A DNA stretch of 64,000 bases, from positions 6,720 through 70,719 of the forward strand of contig JANPGK010000035.1 in assembly GCA_031423895.1 (NCBI GenBank). The letters run 5' to 3'. The DNA is from Hyphomicrobiales bacterium. GTDB lineage: Bacteria; Pseudomonadota; Alphaproteobacteria; Rhizobiales; JANPGK01. The stretch's first letter is position 1; each line of letters begins with the position of its first letter. Made by a program: the position numbers and the translations under genes. Below the pieces are notes generated by a model. The model was not told the origin of the DNA. It saw only the letters and a program-made list of their open reading frames with translations, and ran no database searches. Of this stretch, positions 10,266-39,898 are shown piece by piece.

Positions 10266-11105
10266 ATGACGATGCCCCATCACGCAATTAATCTTCTGCA
10301 CCTTGGTGAATTTACCATTGCCACGTTTTTAGCGCGGCACGATATGCGCAATATTGGTGTGCTGCTGCGGCATCACCCGAGTGAAACGGTGCTGTGTATT
10401 GATGCGCCGCACGCGCCCACCATCATGCATGTTGCGCAGCAATTGGGGTGGCATATTCACCATTTGCTCATCACTCATCATCATTGGGACCATGTGGAAG
10501 GGATTCTTGAGCTAAAAACCGCATATAATTGTACCGTGTATGGGCGCGACCATCCCAAAATTGCGCCGATTGATGTGGTGCTGGTGGAGGGGCAAGATAT
10601 TCGGATTCCCACATTGCGTAGCGATGTGAACGAGCAAAGCGAAGCGCGCAGCGTGGAGGAGTTTGAGGGGGAACACCCTCAATCAGATAATCACATTCAA
10701 CTGCAAACGATCTGCGCCACTGGACATTGCAACACGCAAATTGCCTATTATATTCCCAAAATTGACTGTGCCTTTGTGGCTGATGCACTGTTTAATCTTG
10801 GCTGTGGCCGCATATTGCAAGGCACGCATGCGGAAGCGTTTGCCACATTTCAGCGCATCAAAACCTTGCCGCCGCACACGCGCCTGTGGTTTGGGCATGA
10901 TTACTATGCGCCAAATGCCAAAGTGAGCTTAATTTTTGCGCCTGATGATGCCGAAATTTTGGCCTATATGGAACAAATGGAGGCGCGCACGCAGGCCATG
11001 CCATGCCCCATTATGCTGCAGCACGAGGCCGCAGCAAATTTATTCATGCGCGCAGCAACAGTGGAAGAGTTCACGGCGTTGAGGGTGAGGAGGGATCGGT
11101 TTTGA
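10266..11105 (+). CDS. gloB: Hydroxyacylglutathione hydrolase (glyoxalase II) with ~25-aa repeat-derived insert
   Basis: THHHWDH metallo-beta-lactamase motif, DALFNLGCGR, GHDY, C-terminal LRVRRDRF. Confidence 0.88.
   Translation: MTMPHHAINLLHLGEFTIATFLARHDMRNIGVLLRHHPSETVLCIDAPHAPTIMHVAQQLGWHIHHLLITHHHWDHVEGILELKTAYNCTVYGRDHPKIAPIDVVLVEGQDIRIPTLRSDVNEQSEARSVEEFEGEHPQSDNHIQLQTICATGHCNTQIAYYIPKIDCAFVADALFNLGCGRILQGTHAEAFATFQRIKTLPPHTRLWFGHDYYAPNAKVSLIFAPDDAEILAYMEQMEARTQAMPCPIMLQHEAAANLFMRAATVEEFTALRVRRDRF
10608..10686. repeat. Palindromic insert inside gloB (family D, single copy in window)
   Basis: Hairpins CACATTGC-GTA-GCGATGTG and TTGAGGG-GGAACA-CCCTCAA around GCGAAGCGCGCAGCG; encodes PTLRSDVNEQSEARSVEEFEGEHPQS, which I do not expect in GloB. 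Confidence 0.6.
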
Positions 11106-11225
11106 CCCCCTCTCCCCTTGCGGGAGAGGGTGCCTCGAAGAGGTGGGTGAGGGGTCGCTTAGAATAAATAAGAAAACCCCTCATCCGTCAGCTACGCTGC
11201 CACCTTCTCCCGCAAGGGGAGAAGG
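11106..11225. repeat. Palindromic element, family C, between convergent gloB and phaB
   Basis: CCCCTCTCCCCTTGCGGGAGAGGG...CCCCTCATCCG...CACCTTCTCCCGCAAGGGGAGAAGG; same termini as the xerD insert. Confidence 0.9.
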
Positions 11226-11235
11226 AAGATCTCCA

Positions 11236-11961
11236 TCACACCATATATTGCCCGCCATTCACGCTCAGCGTAGTGCCTGTGATAAAACCTGCGTCATCGG
11301 CCGCGAGAAAGACCACTGCGCGTGCCACATCATGCGTGGTGCCAAGGCGCCCCACAGGAATTTGCGGTATAATCTTGGTTTTCAACACTTCTTCTGGCAT
11401 TGCGGCCACCATTTCGGTGTTGATGTAGCCCGGGCAAATGGCGTTGATGGTGACATTTTTCGATGCCCCTTCTTGTGCGAGCGCCTTCACAAAGCCGATC
11501 ATCCCCGCTTTGGCGGCGGAATAATTGGTTTGGCCAAACTGACCTTTCTGCCCGTTGATCGAGGAAATTGCAATAATACGGCCAAATTTACGGGTGCGCA
11601 TCCCATTCATCACAGGCTGGGTGATGTTAAACAAGGAATCCAAATTTGTGCGCAGTACAGAACTCCATTCATCAGGTTTCATTTTGTGCAAAAACGCATC
11701 CCGCGTGATGCCAGCATTGGCCACAATTACATCGATTGGGCCAAGCTCAGCCTCAATTTTGGCAAGCCCTGCTTTGGTGGCCTCATAATCCGCCACGTCG
11801 AAGCGGTAGGTGTAAACACCCGTTGTCTCGCGAAACAGCTTTGCGGCCTCTTCATTGCCATGGTAATTTGCGGCCACTGTGTAGCCCGCTTCTTTCAACG
11901 CTTTCGATACGGCCGCGCCAATACCGCGCGTGCCACCCGTTACAACTGCTACTCTTGCCAT
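11236..11961 (-). CDS. phaB: Acetoacetyl-CoA reductase PhaB
   Basis: VTGGTRGIG, NGQKGQFGQTNYSAAKAG; follows phaA. Confidence 0.95.
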   Translation of the reverse strand: MARVAVVTGGTRGIGAAVSKALKEAGYTVAANYHGNEEAAKLFRETTGVYTYRFDVADYEATKAGLAKIEAELGPIDVIVANAGITRDAFLHKMKPDEWSSVLRTNLDSLFNITQPVMNGMRTRKFGRIIAISSINGQKGQFGQTNYSAAKAGMIGFVKALAQEGASKNVTINAICPGYINTEMVAAMPEEVLKTKIIPQIPVGRLGTTHDVARAVVFLAADDAGFITGTTLSVNGGQYMV

Positions 11962-11985
11962 GTGTAAATCCCTGATCTTATTATA

Positions 11986-13164
11986 TTATCGTTCAACTGT
12001 GAGGGCGATGCCCATACCGCCACCAATGCACAAGGTGGCCAAGCCTTTTTTAGAGTTGCTGCGCACCATTTCATGCAGCAAAGTGGTGAGAATGCGCGCA
12101 CCAGACGCCCCAATTGGGTGGCCAATGGCAATTGCGCCGCCGTTCACATTCACAATGTCAGGGTTCCAGCCCATGTCCTTATTCACGGCGCAGGCTTGTG
12201 CAGCAAAGGCTTCGTTGGCTTCCACCAAATCGAGATCGCCCACTTTCCAGCCCGCTTTTTTCAGCGCGGTGTGAGAGGCGGGGATCGGCCCTGTGCCCAT
12301 AATGGCGGGGTCAACCCCCTCGGTGGCCCAAGAGGCAATGCGTGCTAGTGGTTGAAGCCCACGTTTTTGCGCCTCGGCCTCGCTCATCAACACAAATGCG
12401 GCCGCGCCGTCATTAATGCCCGATGCGTTGCCGGCGGTCACTGAACCATCTTTTTTGAACGCAGTGCGCAAGCCAGCCATTTTTTCTACTGTGGTGCCAG
12501 CACGGATATATTCATCGGTTGCAAATGCAGTTTCACCTGCTTTGGATTTGAGCATCACAGGCACAATTTCAGCATCGAACTTGCCCGCTATTTGTGCCGC
12601 TTCGGCTTTATTTTGCGATGTTGCGGCGAAAATGTCTTGCATTTCTCTGGTAATGCCAAATTTCTCTGCTACATTTTCCGCCGTAATGCCCATGTGGTAG
12701 CCGTTGAACGCGTCCCACAAGCCATCTTTAATCATTGTGTCGATGAAGGACATGTCGCCCATTTTTTGCCCAGCACGCAAATAAGCTGCGTGTGGTGAAA
12801 GAGACATATTCTCCTGCCCGCCAGCGATAACAATTGTGCTATCGCCCGCTAAAATTGCTTGGTAGCCAAGTGCCACTGCCCGCAAGCCAGAACCACACAC
12901 TTGGTTGATCCCATACGCTGTGGCGTGCTGCGCAACACCTGCAGCAATCGCCGCTTGGCGCGCAGGGTTTTGCCCCAATCCAGCGGTGAGCACTTGGCCC
13001 ATAATTACTTCTGAGATTTCATCGCCCGAAATGCCCGCACGCGAAAGCGCGGCTTTAATGGTGATTGCGCCCAGTTCATGCGCGGGTGTAGTGGCCAGCG
13101 ACCCATTAAAACTGCCCACTGCGGTGCGTGCGGCGGATACGATGACAACATGATGTTTGCCCAT
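11986..13164 (-). CDS. phaA: Acetyl-CoA acetyltransferase (beta-ketothiolase) PhaA
   Basis: [27 protein letters not shown]. Confidence 0.95.
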
Positions 13165-13204
13165 AGAATATGCTCCAAATCAATGATATGATATTGCGCC
13201 CACA

Positions 13205-13335
13205 CTGCAGCAATTGCTGCACAAAAGGCAATAGAAAATCTGTAAAATTTTATCGCTATTTTCTTCGCAGTTGCACAAATTCTGGCTTGACGTGCGCCAA
13301 AAACTGCATAATGCTGCATGCTCACTCTGCAGCAT
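13205..13335. promoter_or_regulatory. TGC-rich repeats in the phaA/phaR divergent promoter, candidate PhaR operators
   Basis: CTGCAGCAATTGCTGCAC and CTGCATAATGCTGCATGC...CTGCAGCA; PhaR is known to bind TGC-rich motifs. Confidence 0.4.
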
Positions 13336-13344
13336 AGGTGCAAC

Positions 13345-13953: not shown

Positions 13954-13977
13954 TTTTATTGGGTTTGTATGACTTAA

Positions 13978-14088
13978 GCTCCTCACCCGTGGGGGAGCTG
14001 GCGAGCGTAGCGAGACTGAGGGGGCATTCTTTTGATGATTGATAGAAAGAAAACCCCTCCCCCCACCCCCTCCCGCAAGGGGGGAGAG
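13978..14088. repeat. Palindromic element, family C (reverse orientation of the ubiE/mutM insert)
   Basis: GGGGGAGCTGGCGAGCGTAGCGAGACTGAGGGGG...GAAAGAAAACCCCTCCCCCCACCCCCTCCCGCAAGGGG. Confidence 0.9.
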
Positions 14089-14107
14089 AAGTTGTGGATT
14101 AAATAAT

Positions 14108-16369: not shown

Positions 16370-17002
16370 ATGGATCTTCTTGCAAACCCCCAAATCAATG
16401 CCCAATGGATCGTATCCATTATCACGTTTTATATCGTTGGAGGTTTTACGCCTGGGCCCAATAATATGATGTTGATGACCTCTGGCGTGCGTTTTGGCTA
16501 CGCCCGCACTTTGCCGCATATCATTGGTATTAATATTGGATTCACGTTCATGAGCGTGGTGGTGGCATATGGTTTGGCGCAGATATTTATTGAGTTACCA
16601 TGGGTGCATTTGGCGATCAAAATTGCAGGGAGCGGCTATTTATTATGGTTGGCATGGCGTATTTATAGTGCTGCTGCACCAGAAAATGAAACCTCTGCCG
16701 AAGCACGCGCCCAGCCATTTAGCTTTATAGAGGCGGCATTATTTCAATGGGTGAACCCTAAAGCATGGCAAATCGCGGCCACGGCAGCTGCTATGTTTGT
16801 CCATCCGCAATCAGCCAGTTATCACGTAGAAATTGCCACTTTGGCACTGATCATCATGTGCCTTTCATTTCCTACAGCTTCTGCCTGGACATTGGGAGGA
16901 GTTGCGATGCGTCGCGTTTTAAAAGCGCCTCAACATGTGGTGGTGTTTAACCGCACAATGGCCGCGCTTCTTGTGGTTTCAATGGTATTAAGTTGGGTGT
17001 GA
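16370..17002 (+). CDS. LysE family translocator
   Basis: TPGPNN, YLLWLAWRI, FQWVNPKAW. Confidence 0.9.
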   Translation: MDLLANPQINAQWIVSIITFYIVGGFTPGPNNMMLMTSGVRFGYARTLPHIIGINIGFTFMSVVVAYGLAQIFIELPWVHLAIKIAGSGYLLWLAWRIYSAAAPENETSAEARAQPFSFIEAALFQWVNPKAWQIAATAAAMFVHPQSASYHVEIATLALIIMCLSFPTASAWTLGGVAMRRVLKAPQHVVVFNRTMAALLVVSMVLSWV

Positions 17003-17064
17003 ATAACGGGCATAGTGCTGTGAAAACCTCGCTACCCCTCGCATCTATGTGCTACACATATACC

Positions 17065-17853
17065 ATGCACGCTGTTCAATTGCCATTTTCTTTGCCTATG
17101 CCGCCGTCTTATGCGGCGGAGGATATTGTACTGGGGTCGCATAATGCACGCGCCTTTAACGCGTTGATGGCATGGCCGCAGTGGCCGCAACCTGTGGCCA
17201 TAGTGGTGGGAGAGGCAGGCGCTGGCAAAACCCATTTGGCGCAAATTTGGGCGCGCCATGCAGGTGCCATTTGCATTCCCGACGACATGCCCACGCAGGA
17301 CGTGATCGCGATAGCCAGCACGCATGCTATTGTGTTGGATAACAGCCCATTATTGCATGATGAAGCGGCGGCATTCGCCATTTTAAATGTCGCTATGACC
17401 CATAAACACGGGCTGCTGATCACCACACACGCTCACCCAGAATTGTGGCATATTGTGAAAAACGACATTCGCTCGCGCTTGCGCTTGGCCAGCGTTTTGC
17501 ATTTATATGCACCTGATGAGGAAGCGCTGTATGGCTTGATGTATAAATTATTTGCTGATCTGCAGCTGCATGTAGAGCCCTCGGTGGTGCGTTATGTTGT
17601 CGCACGCTTGCCAAGGCAGTTTTTAGCGGTGCAGCAATTTGTTGAATATGCCGATGCCGCAGCACTGGCGCAAAAAAAACCTGTCACACGCACACTTGCG
17701 GCGCAGATTATGTTACAGTACTTTCCAGATCATATTGAGACAGATCAATATCAATTGTTTTTAGAGTGTCATCCTGAACGCAGTGAAGGATCTTCCGCCG
17801 ATCGCGCTCCATTTCAGGGAGATCCTTCGGCGATGCCTCAGGATGACACATAA
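17065..17853 (+). CDS. Hda/HdaA-like DnaA regulatory protein with repeat-encoded C-terminus
   Basis: QLPF clamp-binding motif, Walker [18 protein letters not shown]; upstream of ppk-ppx. Confidence 0.8.
17766..17849. repeat. Palindromic element, family A, forming the 3' end of the hda-like ORF
   Basis: GTGTCATCCTGA...AAGGATCT...AGATCCTT...TCAGGATGACAC; 1 mismatch to the reverse complement of 22741-22823. Confidence 0.95.
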
Positions 17854-20583: not shown

Positions 20584-22119
20584 ATGCATATATTACAGCG
20601 CACCGTATCTCTTCCCGCCCCCGGCCGCCTTCCACAAGTGCAGCCTGTTGCCGTGGTGGATATTGGCTCAAACTCGGTGCGTTTGGTAGTCTATGAGGGG
20701 CTCACCCGCGTGCCTGCGCCATTATTTAACGAAAAAATTCTGGCAGGGCTTGGCCGTAATATGGCCGCTTCGGGCTGTATCGCACCTGAAGCTTATGAGG
20801 TGGCGCTCAAAGCCATCGCCCGCTTTGCAGTGTTGCTCAAACAACTGCAGGTTAATAATGTGCATGTGCTGGCCACGGCTGCCGTGCGCGATGCGAATAA
20901 TGGCTTTGAGTTTATGCAACAGGTTGAGCGATTGATCGGCCATGCCCCACACATTATTAGCGGTGAGCGCGAGGCAGAACTGGCCGCGCTTGGGGTGGTT
21001 TCAGGCTTTATCGACCCACACGGAATTGTGGGCGATTTGGGTGGGGGCAGTGTGGAATTTGTCCCTGTGCGTGGCACGCACATTGATGTTGGGGAATCGC
21101 TTCCCTTGGGCGGCTTGCGATTGGCGGAGCTTTCGGGCGGCGATGTGCGCAAAGCGGCGCGCCTCGTGAAAACTGCAATAAGCCAATCCGAGATTGTCAA
21201 AGGTTTGAAGGGGCAGAATTTTTTTGCGGTGGGCGGCAGCTGGCGCTCATTGGCCAAGCTGCACATGGCGCAAACGCACTACCCGCTGCGGGTGATGCAT
21301 AATTACCGCATTCCTGCCAAAGAGGCGTTGGAATTTTGCCGTATGGTGACCAAAACCGACATCAACGCAATTGTGGGCATCGAGGCGGTTTCAAACGATC
21401 GCCGCCCTTTATTGGCATATGGCGCATTGGTGTTGGAAGAGGTAATTGCGCAAGGCAAGCCAGAATTCATCAAATTTTCAGCGCTGGGTGTGCGCGAAGG
21501 GCTGTTGTTCAGCCTATTGAGCCCGCAAGAGCAAGCGCAAGATCCATTGCTTGCCACCGCAGAAGAATTTGCGCTGCTGCGTTCACGCTCGCCCGCTTAT
21601 GTGCATGAGCTCTGCACGTGGAGCGACGCCTTCATGCAGGCGATTGCCCAACATGAAACGCCAGATGACACGCGCTTGCGCCATGCGGCGTGCTTGTTTT
21701 CCGACCTCAGCTGGCGCGCCCATCCTGATTATCGCGGTGAACAAAGCTTCAACATCATTGCCCACGCGGCCTTTATTGGCGTACGCCACCCTGCACGTAT
21801 ATTTTTAGCGCTGGCCGCATTTCATCGTCATGCAGGGTTGAACGAAGTGCCGCCTACTCCCAATTTGCTCGACATGCTTTCGCCTGAAATGCACAGTCGG
21901 GCGCGGATAATCGGCGCGCTCATTCGTGTGGCGCATGCATTATGCGCCTGCACACCTGGCACAATATTGCGCACGTCCTTTGTTGTGTCTGGCAAAACAT
22001 TGGTGCTGCATATACCTGCCGACTTGGCCGATTTGGCCATTCAACGGCTGAATTCCCGCATGAAACAATTGGCGAAACTGCTCAATTTATCGGCCGATAT
22101 TGTGGTGGCCAAAGCTTAG
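20584..22119 (+). CDS. ppx: Exopolyphosphatase Ppx/GppA
   Basis: VDIGSNSVRLVVY, ATAAVRDA, DLGGGSVE, GVREG. Confidence 0.93.
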   Translation: MHILQRTVSLPAPGRLPQVQPVAVVDIGSNSVRLVVYEGLTRVPAPLFNEKILAGLGRNMAASGCIAPEAYEVALKAIARFAVLLKQLQVNNVHVLATAAVRDANNGFEFMQQVERLIGHAPHIISGEREAELAALGVVSGFIDPHGIVGDLGGGSVEFVPVRGTHIDVGESLPLGGLRLAELSGGDVRKAARLVKTAISQSEIVKGLKGQNFFAVGGSWRSLAKLHMAQTHYPLRVMHNYRIPAKEALEFCRMVTKTDINAIVGIEAVSNDRRPLLAYGALVLEEVIAQGKPEFIKFSALGVREGLLFSLLSPQEQAQDPLLATAEEFALLRSRSPAYVHELCTWSDAFMQAIAQHETPDDTRLRHAACLFSDLSWRAHPDYRGEQSFNIIAHAAFIGVRHPARIFLALAAFHRHAGLNEVPPTPNLLDMLSPEMHSRARIIGALIRVAHALCACTPGTILRTSFVVSGKTLVLHIPADLADLAIQRLNSRMKQLAKLLNLSADIVVAKA

Positions 22120-23717
22120 TGTAATGCAAGCGCGGCCAGCAATGCGCCTAAAATCGCCATCAGCACATGGCTGGTATAATTGCGGTGCGGTGGGGCAATA
22201 ATTTGCACGCTTGCAGGCTTGGCCAAATTCTCTATCATCACATCCAAATGCGGCAAATGGCGCACAAGGCTGGCCACAGCTTTGGCCACATGCTTGGCCT
22301 GCGCCTTGGGGCCCAGCTCGTTTTCAATCCATGTTTTCACAATTGGCTCGGCGGTGGTCCAAATATTAATGTTGGGGTTCAGCCCGCGCGCAAGGCCTTC
22401 GGCCATCACCATAGATTTTTGCAATAGTAACAATTCCATGCGGGTTTCCATGCCAAATAGCGATGTGATTTCGAATAAAAGCGTAATCACCCGCGCCATT
22501 GAAACCTCATTGGCGGGGCGTTCGTGGATGGGTTCCCCCACCGCGCGCAGGGCTTGGGCAAATGCGGCTTTGTCCTGTGTGGCTGGCACATAGCCAGCAT
22601 CAAAATGCACTTGGGCAATGCGTTCATAATCGCGCTTGATGAAGCCCCAGAGGATTTCGGCAAAAAAGCGGCGTTCTTTCTCGCCCAATCGCCCCACAAT
22701 GCCAAAATCGATGGCGACGATGGTGGATTGTACATTTAGGGTGTCATCCTGAGGCATCGCCGAAGGATCTCCCTGAAATGGAGCGCGATCGGCGGGAGAT
22801 CCTTCACTGCGTTCAGGATGACATTTATGAAGCCCTTCAACAAAAATATTCCCCGCGTGCCAATCCGCATGGAAAAAGCCGTCGTTCAGCGCTTGCTTCA
22901 AAAAGCTTTGCAGCAGAATTTCGGACAATTTCACCAGATCATGCCCTGCGGCGTGCAGCGCTGCGGGGTTACGTAAGGTTTGGCCGTCAATCCACTCCAT
23001 TGTCAGCATTGCGCGTGATGTGTAGTCCCACTCCACATGTGGTACACGAAAATGCACCTCATTTTTGGTGGTCTGCGCCATTTCGGCTAAAGCGGAGGCT
23101 TCTAGCCGCAAATCCATCTCGGTGCGCGCCCATGAAGCGAATGTGGCCACAATATCGCGCATTTTCAGGCGGCGCGCCTCAGCGCTCATCGCTTCCATCA
23201 TGCGCGCGCCAAAGGCCATATGCGCCAAATCGGCCTTAAAGCGGCGCTGAATATCAGGCCGCAGCAGTTTCACCGCCACGGTTTTGCCGTTCGATATCAG
23301 CACCGCTTTATGCACTTGCGCGATGGATGCCGCAGCTACAGGCGTTGAGAATTCGCTGAAAATTTCCTCCACCGGTTTGCCCATCTCAGCGAGCACCTGC
23401 GCGCGCGCCACATCCATGGGAAATGGTGGCATTTCATCTTGCAGCATGGCCAAATCGGCGGCCATCGCCACGCCCACCACATCTGCGCGGGTCGCCAAAA
23501 ATTGCCCAAATTTAATGAAGCTTGGCCCCAGCACCGCAAAAGCATGGGCGGCCGAATGAGGCGTGGCTTTGGTTTCCACCATGCGCAATAGCTGCACCAT
23601 GCGCCATTGCAGGGGCGTGCACACATCGCGTGGAACGGCGGCTAAAATGCCACTGCGCAGCAATTTTATACCCGCGGCGATGCCCCAAAGCGTGTGGAAT
23701 ATGGGTTTGAAAATCAC
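22116..23717 (-). CDS. ubiB: UbiB/AarF atypical kinase with in-frame repeat insert
   Basis: LGPSFIKFGQ, AASIAQVH, VAVK, FFHADWHAGN...DFG; downstream of ubiE with GTGA overlap. Confidence 0.93.
   Translation of the reverse strand: MIFKPIFHTLWGIAAGIKLLRSGILAAVPRDVCTPLQWRMVQLLRMVETKATPHSAAHAFAVLGPSFIKFGQFLATRADVVGVAMAADLAMLQDEMPPFPMDVARAQVLAEMGKPVEEIFSEFSTPVAAASIAQVHKAVLISNGKTVAVKLLRPDIQRRFKADLAHMAFGARMMEAMSAEARRLKMRDIVATFASWARTEMDLRLEASALAEMAQTTKNEVHFRVPHVEWDYTSRAMLTMEWIDGQTLRNPAALHAAGHDLVKLSEILLQSFLKQALNDGFFHADWHAGNIFVEGLHKCHPERSEGSPADRAPFQGDPSAMPQDDTLNVQSTIVAIDFGIVGRLGEKERRFFAEILWGFIKRDYERIAQVHFDAGYVPATQDKAAFAQALRAVGEPIHERPANEVSMARVITLLFEITSLFGMETRMELLLLQKSMVMAEGLARGLNPNINIWTTAEPIVKTWIENELGPKAQAKHVAKAVASLVRHLPHLDVMIENLAKPASVQIIAPPHRNYTSHVLMAILGALLAALALH
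22741..22823. repeat. Palindromic element, family A, in frame inside ubiB
   Basis: Near-identical to 17766-17849; encodes [28 protein letters not shown]. Confidence 0.95.
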
Positions 23718-24574
23718 AATTTCCACCCTTGATGCAGCGCCACAATGCCAGCAGAAAAGCGTGTGAACTTTGTGCGTTTGAAGCCCGCCTGCTGCATTTC
23801 CAGCTCCAGCCGTTGCGCGCTAGGGAATTTGCGGATCGATTCCGCCAAATAGCGGTAGGAGTCTGCATCATTGGCTATCCATTGCCCCAATTTTGGCATC
23901 ACATGCAGCGAATAGGCATCGTAAACCTGCTTCACGCCCGGCATTTCAACTGGTGAAAATTCGAGGCACAAAAACTGCCCGCCGGGCTTCAATACACGGT
24001 GAAATTCGGCCAATGCGGTGGTGCGGCGGGGCACATTTCGCAGGCCAAATGCAATGGTGACGCAGTCGAATGTGGCATCGGCAAATGGCAGCGCTTCGGC
24101 GTTGCCGAGGATGATATTGACACACTTACTCCCCTCCCCTTGCGGGAGGGGGTAGGGGGAGGGGTTTTCTTTCTTAGAAGTAAGAATACCCCCCTCAGTC
24201 TCGCTTACGCTCGACAGCTCCCCCGCAAGGGGGGAGCGGGAAGAAAACCGCACCGCCGCCTCGCGCAACATTGCCTCATTTATATCCAGCAATGTGGCGC
24301 TGTAGCGCGTGCCTGCGCTTTGCAGTGCGCGCGCCACAATATCGCCCGTGCCGCCCGCCACATCCAAATGTGCAAATGGCAGGTTTCCACGCGGAATGTG
24401 CATTTTGGTAATCAGGCTTTGCTTCCACACCCTGTGCAGCCGCAGCGAGAGTACGTCATTCATCAGGTCGTATTTGCTGGCCACCTCATCAAACACATGG
24501 TTCACGCGCCCTTGCTTTTGTTCAAGGGGAATGGTTTCAAAGCCAAAGTCGATGGTTTCGGGTGCATTTTTCAT
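23714..24574 (-). CDS. ubiE: UbiE/MenG C-methyltransferase with in-frame repeat insert
   Basis: VASKYDLMND, LDVAGGTGD, IAFGLRNV, YRYLAESIRKFP. Confidence 0.94.
   Translation of the reverse strand: MKNAPETIDFGFETIPLEQKQGRVNHVFDEVASKYDLMNDVLSLRLHRVWKQSLITKMHIPRGNLPFAHLDVAGGTGDIVARALQSAGTRYSATLLDINEAMLREAAVRFSSRSPLAGELSSVSETEGGILTSKKENPSPYPLPQGEGSKCVNIILGNAEALPFADATFDCVTIAFGLRNVPRRTTALAEFHRVLKPGGQFLCLEFSPVEMPGVKQVYDAYSLHVMPKLGQWIANDADSYRYLAESIRKFPSAQRLELEMQQAGFKRTKFTRFSAGIVALHQGWKL
24129..24237. repeat. Palindromic element, family C, in frame inside ubiE
   Basis: CCCCTCCCCTTGCGGGAGGGGG...CCCCCTCAGTC...GACAGCTCCCCCGCAAGGGGGGAGC; matches 24902-25048 and 13978-14088. Confidence 0.95.
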
Positions 24575-24645
24575 GCCGCATTTGTACAATATTCCGCTAT
24601 TGATTGCGAGTCTGGAATCGCACCAATCAACATCAAGGTAAATAT

Positions 24646-25641
24646 ATGCCCGAGCTGCCCGAAGTGGAAACCATTCGCCGCCAAATTGCGCCTGCGCTTA
24701 TTGGCAAAATGATTACGCATGTACGCTATAACCGCCCTAATATTCGCTTTGCGCTACCGCCTGAAATGCCACAATTAGTGGTAGGGCGCGTCATAAATGG
24801 GGTGGAGCGCCGTGGGAAATATCTGCTGATTGGGGTGGACGGCGCTGGCCAAATTTTGCTGCATTTGGGCATGAGCGGGCGGGTGTTGATTGAAGATAAC
24901 GCCCCTCCCCTTTGCTGTGCCCTCCGAAGCCCGTCGGGCGAAGGATGGGCGGGAGGGGGTAGGGGGAGGGGTTTTCTTTCTGATTTAGAAAGTAAGAATA
25001 CCCCCCTCAGTCACGCTGCGCGCGACAGCTCCCCCGCAGGTGGGGAGCCATTCACCGCAGGTGCGTTTTACTATGACACCCAGCGCAGCACTAAGCACGA
25101 CCATGTGATGATGACGCTGAACAATTGCACGTTAATTTATAACGACCCGCGCCGTTTTGGCATGATGGATTTCATTCCGCTGGGGCAAAATACGCCCCAC
25201 CCATTGCTGGCCAATATGGGGCACGAGCCGTGGAGTGACGCCTGCACGCCGCAGTGGCTGTTTAATGTGTCGCGCAATCGCAGCACTTCGTTGAAGGCGC
25301 TGTTGCTCGACCAAACCCATATTGCAGGCATTGGCAATATTTATGCCAGCGAGGCGCTGCATAGTGCGCGGCTCAGCCCATTTGCAGCCGCTAGCATGCT
25401 CACATTTCAACAGGCAGAAGATTTGTTGAGTGCAGTGCGGCTTGCGCTCGAAAAAGGTATTCGCTTAGGCGGCGCCAGCATCCGCGATTTTTCGCAGGCC
25501 GATGGCGAGAAGGGCGCCATGCAGGATGAATTTTTGGTGTACGGCCGCGATGGTCAGCCATGCCACAGCTGCGGCGCACCCATCATAAAAGCCACGCAAA
25601 ATGGGCGGAGTACGTTTTGGTGTGGGGGCTGTCAGGTTTAG
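24646..25641 (+). CDS. mutM: Formamidopyrimidine-DNA glycosylase MutM/Fpg with in-frame repeat insert
   Basis: MPELPEVE start, HLGMSG, DPRRFG, AGIGNIYASE, C-terminal zinc finger. Confidence 0.96.
   Translation: MPELPEVETIRRQIAPALIGKMITHVRYNRPNIRFALPPEMPQLVVGRVINGVERRGKYLLIGVDGAGQILLHLGMSGRVLIEDNAPPLCCALRSPSGEGWAGGGRGRGFLSDLESKNTPLSHAARDSSPAGGEPFTAGAFYYDTQRSTKHDHVMMTLNNCTLIYNDPRRFGMMDFIPLGQNTPHPLLANMGHEPWSDACTPQWLFNVSRNRSTSLKALLLDQTHIAGIGNIYASEALHSARLSPFAAASMLTFQQAEDLLSAVRLALEKGIRLGGASIRDFSQADGEKGAMQDEFLVYGRDGQPCHSCGAPIIKATQNGRSTFWCGGCQV
24902..25048. repeat. Palindromic element, family C, in frame inside mutM, with nested ~35-bp hairpin
   Basis: Same element as in ubiE plus extra TGTGCCCTCCGAAGCCCGTCGGGCGAAGGATGGGC in the first loop. 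Confidence 0.93.
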
Positions 25642-25642: not shown

Positions 25643-25726
25643 GTGTCATCCTGAGGTGCAACCGAAGGATCGCCATAAAATAAGCGCAATTGGCGGGAGA
25701 TTCTTCGCCTATGGCTCAGAATGACA
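25643..25726. repeat. Palindromic element, family A (diverged), directly after mutM stop
   Basis: GTGTCATCCTGAGG...GAAGGATC...GATTCTTCG...CTCAGAATGACA. Confidence 0.88.
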
Positions 25727-25746
25727 ACTGTATAGTTTTGATAATG

Positions 25747-27616: not shown

Positions 27617-27737
27617 ATGCTCCCCACTTGTGGGGGAGCTGCCGAGTGAAACGAGGCTGAGGGGGGTATTTTTACCAAGCAAAGTGACCCCCCTCAGTCA
27701 TGCTTCGCATGCCAGCTCCCCCACAAGTGGGGAGCAT
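27617..27737. repeat. Palindromic element, family C, inverted dimer of one module
   Basis: ATGCTCCCCACTTGTGGGGGAGCTG...CAGCTCCCCCACAAGTGGGGAGCAT perfect terminal inverted repeats. Confidence 0.92.
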
Positions 27738-36473: not shown

Positions 36474-36595
36474 CCCCTCATCCTGGTGCTTGACACCAGG
36501 ATCTATTCTTTTTTTCGAGATCCTAGTGTCTATTCCTCGCTCCCGTCTTCGCTGCGCTACGACGCGGCAAGTCGCTCGGGCACTAGGATGAGGGG
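36474..36595. repeat. Palindromic element, family B, with nested ~31-bp insert
   Basis: CCCCTCATCCTGGTGCTTGACACCAGGATCT...AGATCCTAGTGTCTATTCC...GGGCACTAGGATGAGGGG. Confidence 0.9.
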
Positions 36596-36605
36596 GATTT
36601 ATACC

Positions 36606-37580
36606 CTAAACCCGCACCCCATAATCCTCAAATTTCATAATTCGATTATGAAATTCCAGCTTGCGGGCATATTCCAGCGGGTCGAGTGGTTTCACCAGCG
36701 CGCCTTTGGGGCAGTGCATATAGTCGTAAGCACGGGTGAGTAAAAACCGCAGCGCCGCGCCGCGCGCCAAAATGGGGAATGCGGCGAGCTCATCCGCACG
36801 TAAGGGGCGAATTTTGTGATAGGCCTGCAGCAGTGCTTGGGCTTTGGTCACATTCAGGCTGCCATCGGGCTCAAAGCACCACGCATTCACGCAAATCACC
36901 ATGTCATAGGCCAGCATGTCGGTGCAGGCGAAATAAAAATCGATCACGCCCGAAATTGTGGTGCCCAAAAACAGCACATTATTGGGGAATAAATCGGCAT
37001 GGATAATGCCTGTAGGCAAATTCTGCGGCCATGCCCCGTGCAAATTGGCCAGAGTGGTGTGAATCATGGGCACGAGCCCCGCCACGGTGCCGCCAGCGAT
37101 TTGGGCATCGCACGCAATTTTACTGGCCAAATCGTCCCACCCCGCAAGGCTGAGGGTGTTGGCGCGTTGCATGGGGAAGCTGGCGGTGGCGGTGTGGAAT
37201 TGCGCCAAAGCTGCACCCAGCGCCGCGCAATGCGCTGCTGTTGGCCGCCGCACCGAGATGCCATCCAAAAATGTCACAATCGCCGCTGGCTTGCTTGCCA
37301 AAGTGGAAAGTGCTGCCCCTGCGCGGTTTTTCACCGGCAATGGGCAGGGCACCCCGCCGCTGTGGGCGTGTTCCATCAACCCCAAAAAGAACGGCAATTC
37401 ATCGGCATTCACCCGCTTTTCATACAGGGTGAGGATGTAGTCGGCCAGTGTGGTGTGTAGCAGATAATTGGAATTTTCCACGCCCTCGGCAATGCCTTTG
37501 AGCGCGCGCACTTGGCCAATGTCATAGCTGGCTATGAACGTTTCAAGCTCTTCATCGGGCACTTCTGTATATACGGCCAT
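36606..37580 (-). CDS. thrB: Homoserine kinase type II
   Basis: MAVYT, GIAEGVENSNY, IHADLFPNN, IDFYFAC. Confidence 0.95.
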   Translation of the reverse strand: MAVYTEVPDEELETFIASYDIGQVRALKGIAEGVENSNYLLHTTLADYILTLYEKRVNADELPFFLGLMEHAHSGGVPCPLPVKNRAGAALSTLASKPAAIVTFLDGISVRRPTAAHCAALGAALAQFHTATASFPMQRANTLSLAGWDDLASKIACDAQIAGGTVAGLVPMIHTTLANLHGAWPQNLPTGIIHADLFPNNVLFLGTTISGVIDFYFACTDMLAYDMVICVNAWCFEPDGSLNVTKAQALLQAYHKIRPLRADELAAFPILARGAALRFLLTRAYDYMHCPKGALVKPLDPLEYARKLEFHNRIMKFEDYGVRV

Positions 37581-37609
37581 TACAATTCACAATCCAAGAT
37601 AGTTTATCA

Positions 37610-37680
37610 CCGTCATCCTCGGGCGAAGACCCGAGGATCTTCTTTGAAGTAGATGGTCGGTTCAAGCCCGACCATGACGG
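37610..37680. repeat. Palindromic element, family B (CGTC-type REP dimer)
   Basis: CCGTCATCCTCGGGCGAAGACCCGAGGATCT...AGATGGTCGG...CCGACCATGACGG. Confidence 0.88.
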
Positions 37681-37687
37681 AATTGTG

Positions 37688-38644
37688 TTACCCCGCCTCT
37701 CGCAATTCACGCGGCAGTGGGAAGAACATATGTTCCTGCGCGGTGCTGATTGTTTCTAGCACAATGGTGCGGGTGAGTGCAAATTGTGCGATCACTTCTT
37801 CAATCAACACCTCTGGCGCGGAAGCCCCCGCCGTGATGCCAATGGCGCGTACATCGGCAAATTGCGCCATGGGCACATCATCGGCCCGTTCGATGAGCAG
37901 CGAAAGCGTGCAGCCTTCGCGCTCGGCCACCTCGCGCAAGCGTTGCGAGTTGGAAGAGTTGGGCGACCCCATCACAATAAACGCATCCACCAGCGGCGCA
38001 ACCTTGCGCACAGCCTCTTGCCGATTGGTGGTGGCGTAGCAAATATCTTCCTTATGCGGGGCGATCATTGATGGAAAACGTCGCTGCAGCACCTCAATAA
38101 TGGCGCGGGTGTCTTCCACAGAAAGCGTGGTTTGGGTGACATACGCCAGCTCGCCCGCAATCGGCGGGGTGTAGGCTTCGGCTTGGGCTTCGGTTTCAAT
38201 CAGGCTGACAGCCTCCAGCGGCAATTGCCCCATTGTGCCAATCACTTCAGGGTGGCCAGCGTGGCCGATCAGCACAATATGCCGCCCACGCTTGTAGTGA
38301 ACTTGCGCCTCGCGGTGCACTTTTGTCACCAGCGGGCAGGTGGCATCAATGGCAAAAAAATTGAGATTTTTGGCTTCAGCGGGCACTGATTTTGGCACAC
38401 CATGCGCCGAAAACACCACGGGCGCACGCGTGCCAGCAGGAATTTCGTACAATTCCTCCACAAACACAGCGCCTTTGGCGCGCAAACTCTCCACCACATA
38501 GCGATTATGCACAATTTCATGCCGCACATACACGGGTGGGCCATAGTTTTTCAGCGCCACTTCCACCACATCGATCGCCCGCACCACGCCCGCGCAAAAC
38601 CCACGCGGGGAGCAGAGGATGATTTTCAAAGGTGGTTGTTGCAT
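37688..38644 (-). CDS. ispH: 4-hydroxy-3-methylbut-2-enyl diphosphate reductase
   Basis: PRGFCAGV, DATCPLV, ICYATTNRQ, TAGASAPE. Confidence 0.97.
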   Translation of the reverse strand: MQQPPLKIILCSPRGFCAGVVRAIDVVEVALKNYGPPVYVRHEIVHNRYVVESLRAKGAVFVEELYEIPAGTRAPVVFSAHGVPKSVPAEAKNLNFFAIDATCPLVTKVHREAQVHYKRGRHIVLIGHAGHPEVIGTMGQLPLEAVSLIETEAQAEAYTPPIAGELAYVTQTTLSVEDTRAIIEVLQRRFPSMIAPHKEDICYATTNRQEAVRKVAPLVDAFIVMGSPNSSNSQRLREVAEREGCTLSLLIERADDVPMAQFADVRAIGITAGASAPEVLIEEVIAQFALTRTIVLETISTAQEHMFFPLPRELREAG

Positions 38645-38691
38645 GAATGTATTGTAGCGCGGGGTTTAGTAAGAGGCAAGAGGTGATGCAC

Positions 38692-38771
38692 GTGTCATCC
38701 TAACGCAGTGAAGGATCCCCTGCCCATCGCGCTCCACTTTAGGAAGATTCTTCGCTCCGCTCAGAATGACA
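38692..38771. repeat. Palindromic element, family A (diverged), between xerD and ispH
   Basis: GTGTCATCCTAACGCAGTGAAGGATC...ATCGCGCTCCA...GCTCAGAATGACA. Confidence 0.88.
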
Positions 38772-38788
38772 AGGCTCTATTTTCTAAT

Positions 38789-39898
38789 TCACCCCTTCCC
38801 CAGCGGGTGGCACTCTTGCACGAAGGCGTGCAGGCGTTCATCTTGCACATGAGTGTAAATCTGTGTGGTGGTGATGTCGGCATGGCCCAGCAGCGTTTGC
38901 ACCATGCGCAAATCCACCCCATGATGCAGCAGATGGCTGGCAAACGCGTGACGCAGCACATGGGGCGAGAGCGGATCAGCATTCAGGCCAGCACGGCGCG
39001 CCAGCGCTTTCAATTCGCGCGCAAAGGCTTGGCGGGTCATGTGGCCAGTGGCGCTGCTCGCGGGAAATAGCCACGGCGAGGGGCTTGGCGGCAGCATGGC
39101 AATATAGGCGGCGATTGCGGTTTGCGCACCTGCGTGCAGCGGCACAAGGCGCTCCTTCCCGCCCTTGCCTTTGATGGTGAGGAAGTTTGCAATTCTTCCT
39201 CCTCTCCCTTGACGGGAGAGGGTACCGCGAAGCGGGGGGTGAGGGTGTTCTTGGGAATGATTGACCCTGCCATTCGCAGGGCTCATGGCGTTTAAATCTA
39301 AAAACGATTCACTGGATCGTTTTTGCAGCTTCGCTGCCGATTCAAACCCCTCATCCGTCCCTATCGGGACACCTTCTCCCGTCAAGGGAGAAGGGAGGTG
39401 TATACCTTTCATCGGCAGCCCCACCAACTCACTCACCCGCAGGCCTGCGGCATACAGCAGCTCTACCTGGGCGTAGAGTTGCACAGATTTTAGACGTTTT
39501 GCAGGCGTGGCGTCCGCCATTTGATGAACTTCCCGCTGCGCGTGCTCGATCAGCACCGTGACAGCGTTTTCACTCATGGTTTTGGGCAAGGCAGGCGCCA
39601 GCTTTTGGCTTTGCAAAAGGGCTGTGGGGTTGTTCTCCCGCGCATTTTCCGCCACTAAAAATTGGTAGAATTGCGAGAGGGTGGAGCGTTTGCGGGCCAC
39701 GCTGCGCGGGGCAAGCCCTTGTGCCGAAAGATGTGCTAAATAGGCTTGCAAGGTGGCGGTGTTGATCGTTGCAATGGGAGCGGAACCGCAAAAATCGGCA
39801 AAATCGTGCAAATCGCGGCCATAGGCTTCTAGCGTATTGTGTGCTGCACCGCGCTCGGCCCGCAGCATCATCAAAAATTCATCGTGCCAATTGGTCAT
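38789..39898 (-). CDS. xerD: Tyrosine recombinase XerD with 67-aa in-frame repeat insert
   Basis: AERGAAHNTLEAY, GLRVSEL, GKGGKER, SPHVLRHAFASH, LLGHADITTTQIY; divergent from aroKB. Confidence 0.92.
   Translation of the reverse strand: MTNWHDEFLMMLRAERGAAHNTLEAYGRDLHDFADFCGSAPIATINTATLQAYLAHLSAQGLAPRSVARKRSTLSQFYQFLVAENARENNPTALLQSQKLAPALPKTMSENAVTVLIEHAQREVHQMADATPAKRLKSVQLYAQVELLYAAGLRVSELVGLPMKGIHLPSPLTGEGVPIGTDEGFESAAKLQKRSSESFLDLNAMSPANGRVNHSQEHPHPPLRGTLSRQGRGGRIANFLTIKGKGGKERLVPLHAGAQTAIAAYIAMLPPSPSPWLFPASSATGHMTRQAFARELKALARRAGLNADPLSPHVLRHAFASHLLHHGVDLRMVQTLLGHADITTTQIYTHVQDERLHAFVQECHPLGKG
39198..39398. repeat. Palindromic element, family C, in frame inside xerD, with internal hairpins
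   Basis: CCTCTCCCTTGACGGGAGAGGG...CCCCTCATCCG...CACCTTCTCCCGTCAAGGGAGAAGGG; 201 bp. Confidence 0.93.

What the first reader, a model, noticed from the sequence alone, without database searches (positions are those of the whole stretch)
10608..39398. Several families of palindromic repeats inserted in frame into core genes
Seen: six coding sequences in under 30 kb (gloB, hda-like, ubiB, ubiE, mutM, xerD) contain 80-200 bp hairpin elements that keep the frame open. Except for the gloB insert, close relatives also occur between genes in this window. Known: Rickettsia palindromic elements (RPEs) do this, and REP-like repeats are occasionally reported in CDSs. Inference: here at least three sequence-unrelated families do it at high density in a motile, prototrophic-looking alphaproteobacterium. 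This suggests an active non-autonomous element system that writes new 25-67 aa loops into conserved proteins, or one whose inserts are removed at the RNA or translation level.
Basis: partly seen in the sequence, partly recalled or inferred. Interest (0 to 1): 0.9.

Follow-up and report, generated by a model that had tools for sequence, protein, structure and literature searches.

The report
Palindromic repeats translated inside core genes
A small environmental alphaproteobacterial genome carries about 316 short hairpin repeats, 48 of which sit in frame inside 42 genes, nearly all recognisable housekeeping genes, much as in Rickettsia, and two of the repeat families look like stripped-down copies of a small element that encodes a DUF559 nuclease.

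Summary
Five genes (gloB, ubiB, ubiE, mutM, xerD) carry internal in-frame inserts of 27-67 aa. hdaA instead carries a 35-aa C-terminal extension made of repeat DNA. Same-order orthologues lack all of these, and so does a 73%-identical UbiB.

Genome-wide I found 316 repeat loci in seven families, 1.55% of 1.90 Mb. Of these, 48 lie in frame inside 42 genes, including leuS, gltX, glyS, polA, priA, uvrC, metH and purL.

The gloB insert is not an orphan; it is a diverged member of family F4. The families are not all unrelated. F3 fits the published CGTC-tagged REP dimer. F0 and F2 share one architecture.

The best reading is insertion of non-autonomous palindromic repeats followed by selection. Only stop-free copies with a net length of 3n at permissive loops survive, and these are translated. 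Nothing supports removal at the RNA level, but no RNA or protein data exist.

The kind is known: Rickettsia RPEs, and intragenic GTAG/CGTC REPs (Di Nocera 2013). This is a new, dense case outside Rickettsiales.

One lead is new. All 3 DUF559 (Vsr-like nuclease) genes of this genome sit exactly in the centre of an F0 or F2 element. In other Alphaproteobacteria, 17 of 27 DUF559 loci have arms of the same architecture.

The parts
10245..11105 (+). gloB (hydroxyacylglutathione hydrolase), host gene
   Evidence: Pfam Lactamase_B plus HAGH_C. TIGR03413 matches in two stretches. It is the only copy in the genome.
10617..10697 (.). gloB insert, 27 aa (aa 125-151), a diverged F4-like element
   Evidence: Absent from the 9 orthologues aligned. 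7 BLASTN HSPs genome-wide. Shares the F4 core (E 1e-4). The hairpin is not significant, z -1.36.
11107..11227 (.). Intergenic F2 copy directly after the gloB stop codon
   Evidence: nhmmer E 2.9e-28, HMM positions 4-120 of 121. Inverted repeat I3.
13976..14086 (.). Intergenic F0 copy between phaR and a GT4 gene; it overlaps the longest-ORF start of that gene
   Evidence: nhmmer E 1.2e-25.
16993..17853 (+). hdaA, host gene with a 3' fusion
   Evidence: NCBIfam HdaA profile positions 6-221 of 228 match aa 27-241. Orthologue alignments end by aa 246 in 12 of 12 relatives.
17767..17849 (.). F1 copy that supplies the last ~28 codons of hdaA (within the 35-aa extension, aa 252-286); it also holds the longest-ORF start of ppk
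   Evidence: nhmmer E 1.2e-22. 98.8% identical to the ubiB copy. Fold z -5.77.
22116..23726 (-). ubiB (ABC1 atypical kinase), host gene
   Evidence: Pfam ABC1 covers 280 aa against a 244-position profile. Single copy.
22741..22823 (.). F1 copy in ubiB, between the HADxHxGN catalytic loop and the DFG motif
   Evidence: nhmmer E 2.3e-23. Absent from 12 of 12 relatives and from a 73%-identical UbiB, P0003. Fold z -4.43.
23714..24589 (-). ubiE, host gene
   Evidence: Pfam Ubie_methyltran matches in 2 stretches. Single copy.
24129..24238 (.). F0 copy in ubiE (insert aa 120-152)
   Evidence: nhmmer E 3.9e-31. Absent from 12 of 12 relatives. Fold z -3.68.
24604..25641 (+). mutM (Fpg), host gene; the likely start is the ATG at 24643
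   Evidence: Pfam Fapy_DNA_glyco, H2TH and zf-FPG, with a ~100-aa gap between the first two. Single copy.
24901..25050 (.). F0 copy (150 nt variant) in mutM
   Evidence: nhmmer E 1.9e-27. Absent from 8 of 11 orthologues; the other 3 have their own unrelated inserts at the same loop. AF2 pLDDT is about 30 over the insert.
25644..25727 (.). Intergenic F1 copy directly after the mutM stop codon
   Evidence: nhmmer E 6e-14.
27617..27734 (.). Intergenic F0 copy
   Evidence: nhmmer E 1.7e-16. Inverted repeat I1, 51-nt arms.
36474..36594 (.). Intergenic F5 copy
   Evidence: nhmmer E 4.8e-19.
37610..37680 (.). Intergenic F3 copy (CGTC-tagged REP head-to-head dimer type)
   Evidence: nhmmer E 2.5e-16. 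Family ends are shown.
38693..38771 (.). Intergenic F1 copy just downstream of xerD
   Evidence: nhmmer E 1.2e-15.
38789..39904 (-). xerD, host gene
   Evidence: Pfam Phage_int_SAM_1 plus Phage_integrase. The catalytic R156, K247, H315, R318, H341 and Y350 are invariant in the alignment. The only other hit in the genome is a normal xerC-like paralogue.
39197..39396 (.). Composite insert in xerD (aa 174-240). F2 arms lie at 39197-39277 and 39340-39396, with a ~75-nt minor element nested between them
   Evidence: nhmmer F2 HMM positions 2-82 and 64-120. The centre has 11 other partial copies. Fold z -10.1. Absent from 12 of 12 relatives. AF2 pLDDT 30-51. Logan contigs bridge both junctions.

Best explanation
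The inserts are copies of non-autonomous palindromic repeat elements of 70-150 bp that have spread through this 1.9-Mb genome.

There are at least two superfamilies.
- F1, F3, F5 and F6 are head-to-head dimers of small hairpins with a GTCATCC- or CTCATCC-type end. F3 fits the published CGTC-tagged REP.
- F0 and F2 have a terminal CCCTCTCCC-loop-GGGAGAGGG hairpin followed by a G-rich box on each arm.
- F4, which includes the gloB insert, is a further family.

Inferred mechanism. Copies land anywhere, and selection then filters them. A copy inside a needed gene survives only if it adds a multiple of three bases, has no stop codon in the host frame, and falls in a loop that can take 27-67 extra residues. 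Survivors are transcribed and translated with the host gene. They appear as Gly/Pro/Ser/Glu-rich, probably disordered surface excursions, or as C-terminal tails as in hdaA.

Shown here: repeat identity, in-frame position, absence from orthologues, single-copy hosts, and intact catalytic residues (aligned for XerD only).

Inferred only: that the inserts are translated and tolerated, and how the elements move.
For: (1) Census. There are 316 loci in 7 families, totalling 29.5 kb. Of these, 48 lie in frame inside 42 ORFs with coding-like flanks on both sides, 187 are intergenic, and 81 overlap ORF ends.

(2) Hosts are real conserved genes. 39 of 42 match a Pfam family. One more, QueE, is named by NCBIfam. 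Examples are LeuRS, GluRS, GlyS, PolA, PriA, UvrC, MetH, PurL, TrpE and NadE.

(3) Absence from orthologues. For all six window genes the same-order orthologues lack the segment. The nearest UbiB in 5.8 billion proteins, at 73% identity, lacks it exactly.

(4) No spare copies. Each of the six genes is the only copy in the genome.

(5) Frame use fits a stop-codon filter.
- Intergenic copies have about 1.5 of 6 frames open.
- The third frame of the F1 end always carries TGA.
- 13 of 14 genic F1 copies start in the TGT-CAT reading.
- F0 copies are read in three different frames.

(6) AF2 models of XerD and MutM give well-predicted host domains (pLDDT 80-98). The inserts have pLDDT 30-51 and leave and re-enter between neighbouring strands. 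The XerD catalytic residues are invariant.

(7) Permissive site. The same MutM loop holds an independent repeat-derived insert in another family's genome, G015.

(8) Precedent. RPEs and intragenic GTAG/CGTC REP dimers encode 20-30 aa, often in repair genes and tRNA synthetases (PMC3733652 section 15; PMC10969869 passages).
Against: - There are no RNA or protein data, so translation is inferred.
- 'Internal' was defined by open reading frames. A stop-bearing genic copy would therefore be scored as intergenic. I checked only 5 ORF pairs for split genes.
- The gene calls come from my own crude hexamer caller.
- Apart from one 73% UbiB, all orthologues are from other families. No empty site is available at the DNA level, and exact insert ends and target duplications could not be defined.
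- Low pLDDT is not proof of a tolerated surface loop.
- The genome is a 39-contig metagenome assembly. The contigs that bridge junctions probably come from the same sample.
Confidence: 0.8

Rival explanations
1. The inserts are removed before or during protein synthesis, by an unknown RNA excision or by translational bypassing over the hairpin, so the mature proteins lack them.
For: The elements form strong hairpins. No data show the inserts in protein.
Against: If they were removed, genic copies would not need to be 3n and stop-free. Yet all 48 are, and only open frames are used.

No essential gene was seen split by a stop-bearing copy in the 5 pairs tested. Genome completeness is given as 100%.

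No Rfam intron or other RNA family matches the elements. The peptides are far too short for inteins. In the one comparable system that has been examined, R. conorii proteins decorated with RPE-1 are reported as expressed in vivo (PMC3733652 section 15, citing its ref. 49).
Confidence: 0.05
2. The interrupted genes are decaying pseudogenes in a shrinking genome. The inserts are simply damage that has not yet been followed by stop codons.
For: The genome is small (1.9 Mb) for its order, whose other members mostly range from 2.5 to 8 Mb.
Against: - All six window genes are the only copies in the genome.
- Hosts include leuS, gltX, glyS, polA and ubiquinone synthesis genes.
- The frames stay open over 188-1257 codons.
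- The XerD catalytic residues are invariant.
- Coding-potential scores are positive on both sides of every insert.
Confidence: 0.05
3. Assembly artefact: repeat copies were wrongly placed inside genes when the metagenome was assembled.
For: Logan contigs break inside most elements. The ubiB and ubiE junctions are bridged by only 30 and 25 letters, below the tool's 31-letter rule.
Against: Misplaced repeats would not be in frame 48 times, nor sit at loops. Contigs do bridge both xerD junctions and the left mutM junction with no mismatches. The flanks read on in frame into conserved protein sequence.
Confidence: 0.02
4. The peptide loops are old, functional parts of these proteins, and the intergenic repeats derive from them.
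For: Three other genomes have unrelated inserts at the same MutM loop.
Against: The same 28-aa peptide occurs in unrelated proteins such as UbiB, HdaA, AsnB, PurL and AnmK. The inserts are absent from all orthologues examined, including the 73% UbiB. Intergenic copies outnumber genic ones by 187 to 48.
Confidence: 0.03

Closest known systems
Rickettsia palindromic elements (RPE-1 to RPE-10; Ogata et al. 2000, 2002, known to me through the passages of PMC10969869 and PMC3733652)
   Same: Several families of ~100-150 bp palindromic repeats in one small alphaproteobacterial genome. A large share sit in frame in unrelated housekeeping genes. Each family gives a recurrent peptide. No transposase is known.
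   Different: The host here is not in Rickettsiales. Its nearest UbiB relatives by name are Bosea, Microvirga and Methylobacterium. It comes from freshwater sediment. The insert peptides match no NCBIfam or Pfam model. That NCBIfam holds RPE domain models is my recollection. Two of the families here are tied to a DUF559 gene.
CGTC-tagged REPs and their head-to-head dimers (Di Nocera, De Gregorio and Rocco 2013, PMC3733652; I read the abstract, passages and section 15)
   Same: These predominate in Alphaproteobacteria, free-living ones included. Their layout is tag, 8-9 bp stem starting AT, 4-5 nt loop, CCA tail. They are mostly head-to-head dimers. The dimers encode 20-30 aa inside genes, often DNA repair or replication genes and tRNA synthetases. 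F3 here reads CGTC / ATCCTCGGG / CTTGA / CCCGAGGAT / CCA.
   Different: F1 carries TGTC rather than CGTC and has an imperfect stem. F0, F2 and F4 do not fit this scheme. I could not compare per-genome counts of intragenic copies, because the paper's figure 7 and additional file 3 were not readable.
Bacterial MITEs with in-frame insertions (ERIC/RU elements, Coxiella QMITE1, pneumococcal BOX; reviews PMC3184786 and PMC10969869, passages only)
   Same: Short non-autonomous inverted-repeat elements with open frames. They are found fused internally or at the 3' ends of genes.
   Different: No target-site duplication and no IS with matching ends was seen here. The density of genic copies is much higher than the sporadic cases described.
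REPIN-RAYT systems
   Same: Hairpin repeats in dimers, dispersed through the genome, with a single-copy gene proposed as the mobiliser.
   Different: No Y1 transposase (PF01797) is present in this assembly. The gene found inside elements is a PD-(D/E)XK, Vsr-like DUF559 nuclease.
Vsr/DUF559 clade of PD-(D/E)XK nucleases (table in PMC3424549; Caulobacter VsrA, PMC12907096 passages; PDB 3hrl)
   Same: The three element-borne ORFs match DUF559 at E 1e-25 to 1e-39 and 3hrl at 3e-25. The clade holds both a mismatch-repair nickase and a group I intron homing endonuclease.
   Different: In my searches no paper places DUF559 genes inside palindromic repeat elements or proposes them as mobilisers.

Membership tests
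Rickettsia palindromic elements (RPE) | Palindromic repeat of ~100-150 bp inserted in frame in many unrelated genes, with a recurrent family peptide | tested here: met
   48 in-frame copies in 42 genes, with recurrent peptides per family. Hairpin z-scores from -2.75 to -10.1 for 5 of the 6 window inserts.
Rickettsia palindromic elements (RPE) | Sequence membership in a described RPE family, or occurrence in Rickettsia or its relatives | tested here: not met
   None of the 6 insert peptides matches any NCBIfam or Pfam model at E <= 10. That RPE domain models are in NCBIfam is recalled, not checked. The nearest named UbiB relatives are Bosea, Microvirga and Methylobacterium.
CGTC-tagged REP (head-to-head dimer) | Unpaired CGTC tag, 8-9 bp stem starting with AT, 4-5 nt loop, CCA tail, two units head to head | tested here: met
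   Met for F3 only. The consensus and 27 listed copies begin CGTCATCCTCGGG-CTTGA-CCCGAGGATCCA and end with the mirror image. The criteria are taken from PMC3733652.
CGTC-tagged REP (head-to-head dimer) | The same features, applied to F1, the family in ubiB and hdaA | tested here: inconclusive
   F1 ends with TGTCATYCTGAGG. The tag is TGTC, the stem is imperfect, and the dimer layout is present.
MITE | Terminal inverted repeats | tested here: met
   F1, F2, F3 and F5 have mirrored ends.
MITE | Target-site duplication | tested here: not met
   No shared flanking bases in the 28 best copies listed for each of F0, F1 and F2 and the 27 for F3. No empty site is available to fix the exact ends.
MITE | Parent IS or transposase with the same ends | tested here: not met
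   No multi-copy IS-sized repeat in the assembly. IS copies can be lost from metagenome assemblies.
REPIN-RAYT | A RAYT (Y1_Tnp, PF01797) gene flanked by the repeats | tested here: not met
   0 matches in the genome. The control search rings in 6 of 14 reference genomes.
Group I/II intron, intein or other self-removing insert | Intron RNA structure, or intein-sized protein with splicing motifs | tested here: not met
   Rfam at gathering threshold finds only a tRNA and SRP RNA in the window. The inserts are 27-67 aa. That this is shorter than any intein is from general knowledge.
DUF559-bearing palindromic element (proposed here) | DUF559 ORF lying between the two halves or arms of an F0/F2-type element | tested here: met
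   3 of 3 DUF559 genes in G000. 7 of 13 loci in same-order genomes. 10 of 14 loci in other orders of the class. Loci without arms: 6 of 13 and 4 of 14.
DUF559-bearing palindromic element (proposed here) | The nuclease acts on the arms and moves the element | not testable with these tools
   Only association is shown. The conserved D, ExDG and H positions are kept in all three G000 copies.

The most novel reading that the evidence does not exclude
F0 and F2, which give 26 of the 48 in-frame inserts, are ORF-less miniatures of a widespread alphaproteobacterial selfish element of ~420-600 bp. That element consists of two hairpin arms around a DUF559 (Vsr-like PD-(D/E)XK) nuclease gene. On this reading the nuclease, not a transposase, drives copying of the arms, by nicking or cutting at the arms followed by repair-templated spread. 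This would give RPE-like, protein-invading palindromes their long-missing mobiliser.
Probability: 0.35. Interest if true: 0.8.

Novelty: new member of a known kind. Interest (0 to 1): 0.6.

Why it matters
In-frame invasion of proteins by palindromic repeats has been treated mainly as a Rickettsia oddity, with scattered REP cases elsewhere. Here it occurs at comparable density in a sediment alphaproteobacterium whose nearest named relatives by UbiB are Rhizobiales genera. About 2% of its ORFs are affected, including three tRNA synthetase genes, polA, priA, uvrC, xerD and mutM. This offers a second natural system for asking how essential enzymes tolerate 30-70 residue insertions, and which loops are permissive. 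The MutM loop was hit independently in another genome.

The DUF559 association gives a concrete, testable candidate for how one class of such repeats moves. The CGTC REP study left that question open for its own class ("apparently lack a dedicated transposase", PMC3733652).

The case also matters for annotation. The repeats create false start codons (ppk, the GT4 gene) and C-terminal tails (hdaA, tatB).

Tried and rejected
RNA evidence. The look-up of sequencing runs listed no RNA holder, so expression could not be examined. Only two DNA runs of one freshwater-sediment study hold the stretch.

Read support. Logan contigs break inside most elements. The parts without cover, and the joints between different repeat copies, say nothing. 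No empty-site contig was seen.

Target-site duplications. None was seen next to F0-F3.

A 3n test on element length. HMM-bounded lengths are not enriched for 3n in any family, and genic and intergenic F1 copies share the same 83-nt mode. True insert ends are unknown, so the test is uninformative.

Split genes. 93 non-internal copies lie within 45 nt of two same-strand ORFs, simply because spacers are tiny. That makes adjacency useless as a signal. In the 5 pairs whose upstream stop lies in the element, the two ORFs are different genes: tatB/tatC, DUF559/NUDIX, DUF559/amidohydrolase, rmlC/epimerase, unknown/tonB. Six or so further borderline cases were not tested.

F1 peptide in other organisms. 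A region search with UbiB residues 293-336 returned only 2 candidates, both from this genome. The word filter clearly missed other F1-bearing proteins of this genome, so this result says little.

The search for related loci in genome contigs returned only distant Rhodobacteraceae-type UbiB loci. This was not useful.

F7 (6 copies, all ~340 nt from a 3' end) was set aside as a probable paralogous protein domain, not a repeat element. It was not followed up.

I rejected misassembly, pseudogenes and 'old loops' for the reasons given under the rival explanations.

The Chen and Shapiro 2003 CIR paper is not held. Whether CIR elements equal the F2 type therefore stays open. Supplements of PMC3733652 (its list of intragenic REPs) were not readable and could bear on how unusual the density is.

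Full report
WHAT IS THERE

The window is G000:C35:6720-70719, in a 1.90-Mb, 39-contig, ~50% GC genome. Its completeness is given as 100%.

The domain matches are interrupted in each:
- ubiE and gloB match in two stretches.
- mutM has a ~100-aa gap between its N-terminal and H2TH domains.
- In xerD the integrase domain resumes at profile position 56 only at residue 242.
- In ubiB the ABC1 match covers 280 residues for a 244-position profile.

Translation shows the same 28-aa peptide, CHPERSEGS(P/S)[18 protein letters not shown], inside UbiB and at the end of HdaA.

INSERT BORDERS

I searched 12-30 genomes of the same GTDB order. All are in other families; G000 is the only member of its family among those held. 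I aligned the orthologues.

Segments absent from the orthologues aligned (9 per gene):
- XerD 174-240.
- UbiE 120-152.
- UbiB 299-332.
- GloB 125-151.
- HdaA 252-286. This is a C-terminal tail. The HdaA profile ends at residue 241.

For MutM, about residues 99-150 are absent from 8 of 11 orthologues. The other three (G001, G015, G025) have their own unrelated inserts at the same loop. The G015 insert has 4 further partial copies in its own genome, so it is also repeat-derived. The G001 and G025 inserts are unique in their genomes.

The nearest UbiB in a 5.8-billion-protein collection is P0003, on a 2-kb environmental contig, at 73% identity in the alignment. It lacks the insert cleanly. The F1 copy sits between the HADxHxGN catalytic loop and the DFG motif.

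Each of the six genes is the only copy in the genome. xerD has just the usual xerC-like paralogue.

THE REPEATS GENOME-WIDE

Self-BLAST found 269 regions repeated five or more times. Clustering gave seven main families. Profile searches, merged across strands and families, gave 316 loci totalling 29.5 kb, or 1.55% of the genome:

| Family | Loci |
|---|---|
| F0 | 61 |
| F1 | 67 |
| F2 | 54 |
| F3 | 47 |
| F4 | 37 |
| F5 | 31 |
| F6 | 19 |

I used my own hexamer-based ORF caller, which gave 1,859 ORFs covering 90% of the sequence. With these calls, the loci fall as follows:
- 48 lie inside an ORF, with at least 90 nt of coding-like sequence on both sides: F0 16, F1 14, F2 10, F3 2, F4 4, F6 2.
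- 187 are intergenic.
- 55 overlap an ORF end.
- 26 sit within an ORF near one end.

The 48 internal copies fall in 42 genes. Pfam names 39 of the 42 and NCBIfam adds QueE. Hosts include:
- LeuRS, GluRS and GlyS-beta.
- PolA, PriA, UvrC and an AddA-like helicase.
- MetH, PurL, TrpE, AsnB and NadE (2 inserts).
- A NadB-like flavoprotein (3 inserts).
- GcvT, GcvP, HemF, YbeY, RsmB, PrmA and Hsp33.
- AnmK (2 inserts) and YgfZ (2 inserts).

Many Pfam envelopes are longer than their profile span by about the length of the element. Examples are UvrC_RNaseH_dom at 204 aa for 158 profile positions (2-159), Met_synt_B12 at 303 for 272, YbeY at 147 for 113, and ABC_tran at 167 for 137.

FAMILY RELATIONSHIPS

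- F3 reads CGTC / ATCCTCGGG / CTTGA / CCCGAGGAT / CCA, followed by its mirror image. That is the CGTC-tagged REP head-to-head dimer described by Di Nocera et al. (PMC3733652).
- F1 (in ubiB and hdaA) has the same layout, with a TGTC tag and an imperfect stem.
- F5 and F6 have similar ends.
- F0 (in ubiE and mutM) and F2 (in xerD) share another layout. There is a terminal hairpin of the CCCTCTCCC-loop-GGGAGAGGG type, then a G-rich box, then the mirror image on the other arm.
- The gloB insert shares the central ACGCTKCGCGCTTCGCT core of F4. All 4 members of its BLAST cluster lie inside ORFs.
- The xerD insert is an F2 copy whose centre holds a further ~75-nt element. That element has 11 other partial copies. 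One of them is nested in an F0 copy inside glyS.

HAIRPINS AND CHANCE

Fold z-scores are -5.8 and -4.4 (F1), -3.7 (ubiE), -2.75 (mutM), -10.1 (xerD) and -1.36 (gloB, not significant).

The strict F1 end pattern hits G000 38 times and its reversed control 0 times. Of 400 other genomes of the order, only three match. G145 and G216 belong to one genus, have ~2-Mb genomes, and give 4 clearly F1-like matches each. G156 gives 1 match, which lies in an 804-aa ORF and looks like chance. The three G145/G216 copies I examined are not inside long ORFs.

HOW IT MOST LIKELY WORKS

Frame use fits a passive filter, not a designed coding element.
- Intergenic copies have on average 1.1-2.3 of 6 frames open.
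- One frame of the F1 end always contains TGA.
- 13 of 14 genic F1 copies begin in the TGT-CAT reading. 11 of the 14 are in one orientation, giving the PERSEGS peptide. 3 are in the other, giving CH(P/S)EA.PK(D/N)L.
- F0 copies are read in three different frames.
- 8 of the 9 F2 insertions begin (L/Y)PSPL(T/A)GE.

Only 15% of copies are internal to genes although ~90% of the genome is coding. Most genic insertions must therefore have been lost.

AF2 models with shallow alignments predict the XerD and MutM host domains well (pLDDT 80-98). The inserts are low-confidence excursions (30-51) between adjacent secondary-structure elements. The XerD catalytic R, K, H-x-x-R, H and Y residues are invariant.

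I therefore hold, at about 0.8, that the inserts are translated and tolerated as surface loops or tails. Translation itself is inferred. No RNA run is listed.

ACTIVITY

The median nearest-neighbour identity is about 90% for F0-F3, and only 17 of 161 full-length F0-F2 copies with a neighbour scored (of the 161 full-length copies) reach 95%. Genic and non-genic copies look equally old. The hdaA and ubiB F1 copies are 98.8% identical.

There is no RAYT gene. There is no multi-copy IS in the assembly, though metagenome assemblies often lose those.

THE DUF559 LEAD

While testing for split genes I found a DUF559 ORF flanked by F2 halves. The genome has three DUF559 genes. All three lie exactly between the two halves of an element:
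- C37: between F0 HMM positions 3-64 and 64-114.
- C18: between F0 positions 2-64 and a weak 68-112 (E 0.01).
- C8: between the two F2 arms.

All three keep the conserved D, ExDG and H positions. The C8 protein matches PDB 3hrl at 3e-25.

In 25 same-order genomes, 10 have DUF559. Of the 13 loci fetched, 7 have flanking inverted arms (z above 11), while 6 of the 13 do not. These arms have the F2-type layout and span 460-600 bp.

In a 40-genome sample of other orders of the class, 8 genomes have DUF559. There 10 of 14 loci show the same arms and 4 of 14 do not.

In G022 and G017 the arm also occurs as ORF-less pairs ~150 bp long, 3 pairs and 1 pair respectively.

So F0 and F2 look like miniatures of a DUF559-bearing element. 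Alternatively, the DUF559 gene homes into such elements. The published clade holds both Vsr nickases and a group I intron homing endonuclease (PMC3424549 table). Caulobacter VsrA, a DUF559 protein, is proposed to cause DNA breaks, and it is required for the SOS response seen when its partner methylation is lost (PMC12907096 passages).

Two full-text searches (25 and 65 papers) found no paper linking DUF559 to palindromic repeats. A role in movement is not shown.

COMPARISON WITH WHAT IS KNOWN

In-frame palindromic inserts are established for Rickettsia RPEs. They are noted for ERIC/RU, BOX and QMITE1 elements and for GTAG/CGTC REPs in several free-living species. Dimers there encode 20-30 aa and favour repair genes and tRNA synthetases (PMC10969869, PMC3184786, PMC3733652). 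The host spectrum here matches that description closely.

The insert peptides match no Pfam or NCBIfam model, and Rfam has no match to the elements. This is therefore a new, dense member of a known kind. What is new is the lineage and habitat, the density, the nesting of elements within elements within genes, and the DUF559 association.

LIMITS

- The gene caller is crude.
- The 'internal' class carries an ascertainment bias.
- Apart from one 73% UbiB, the orthologues are distant.
- No empty sites are available at the DNA level.
- The read support comes from contigs of what is probably the source sample.

Noticed in passing
G000:C8:97399-97856; G000:C37:45099-45540; G000:C18:25706-26166 (outside the window): All three DUF559 (Vsr-like nuclease) genes of the genome lie exactly between the two halves of an F0 or F2 repeat. 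DUF559 loci in other Alphaproteobacteria carry arms of the same architecture in 17 of 27 cases.
   Followed up: partly
L003 (G015:C1:765801-765961), L002, L004: The MutM loop that holds the F0 copy here also holds unrelated inserts in three other families' genomes. The G015 insert has 4 partial copies elsewhere in that genome, so the loop was invaded independently.
   Followed up: partly
window 39278-39339; also G000:C35:80128-80347 (glyS): A minor ~75-nt element, with 11 other partial copies, is nested in the centre of larger elements that are themselves in frame inside genes. This gives three levels of nesting with the frame kept open.
   Followed up: partly
window 17783 (ppk longest-ORF start) and 14039 (GT4 gene longest-ORF start): The longest-ORF start codons of ppk and of a glycosyltransferase gene lie inside repeat copies. 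Pfam domains begin about 58 and 37 residues further on, so automatic annotation would probably over-extend these genes.
   Followed up: no
G000:C8:106911-108656: A NadB-like flavoprotein gene holds three internal repeat copies (two F1, one F3 fragment), and a fourth copy (F2) overlaps its 3' end. Its C-terminal Pfam domain is matched only over profile positions 53-89 of 130.
   Followed up: no
genome-wide: 93 non-internal copies lie within 45 nt of both neighbouring same-strand ORFs. The repeats therefore fill almost the whole spacer between co-directional genes. TatB, like HdaA, ends inside a repeat.
   Followed up: partly
G145 and G216 (same order, one genus, ~2-Mb genomes); loci L075, L076, L078: F1-like elements occur at low copy (4 strict pattern matches each) in one other small-genome genus of the order. 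The three copies I examined are not inside long ORFs.
   Followed up: partly
G000 contigs C28/C29 and C32/C33: These pairs of short contigs are 94% and 88-91% identical over their length. That suggests strain variants or collapsed duplicates in the assembly.
   Followed up: no
window 54685-54782 (+) and 59671-59744 (-): SRP RNA and a tRNA are the only Rfam matches in the window. An F5 copy (54814-54905) lies right after the SRP RNA gene.
   Followed up: no
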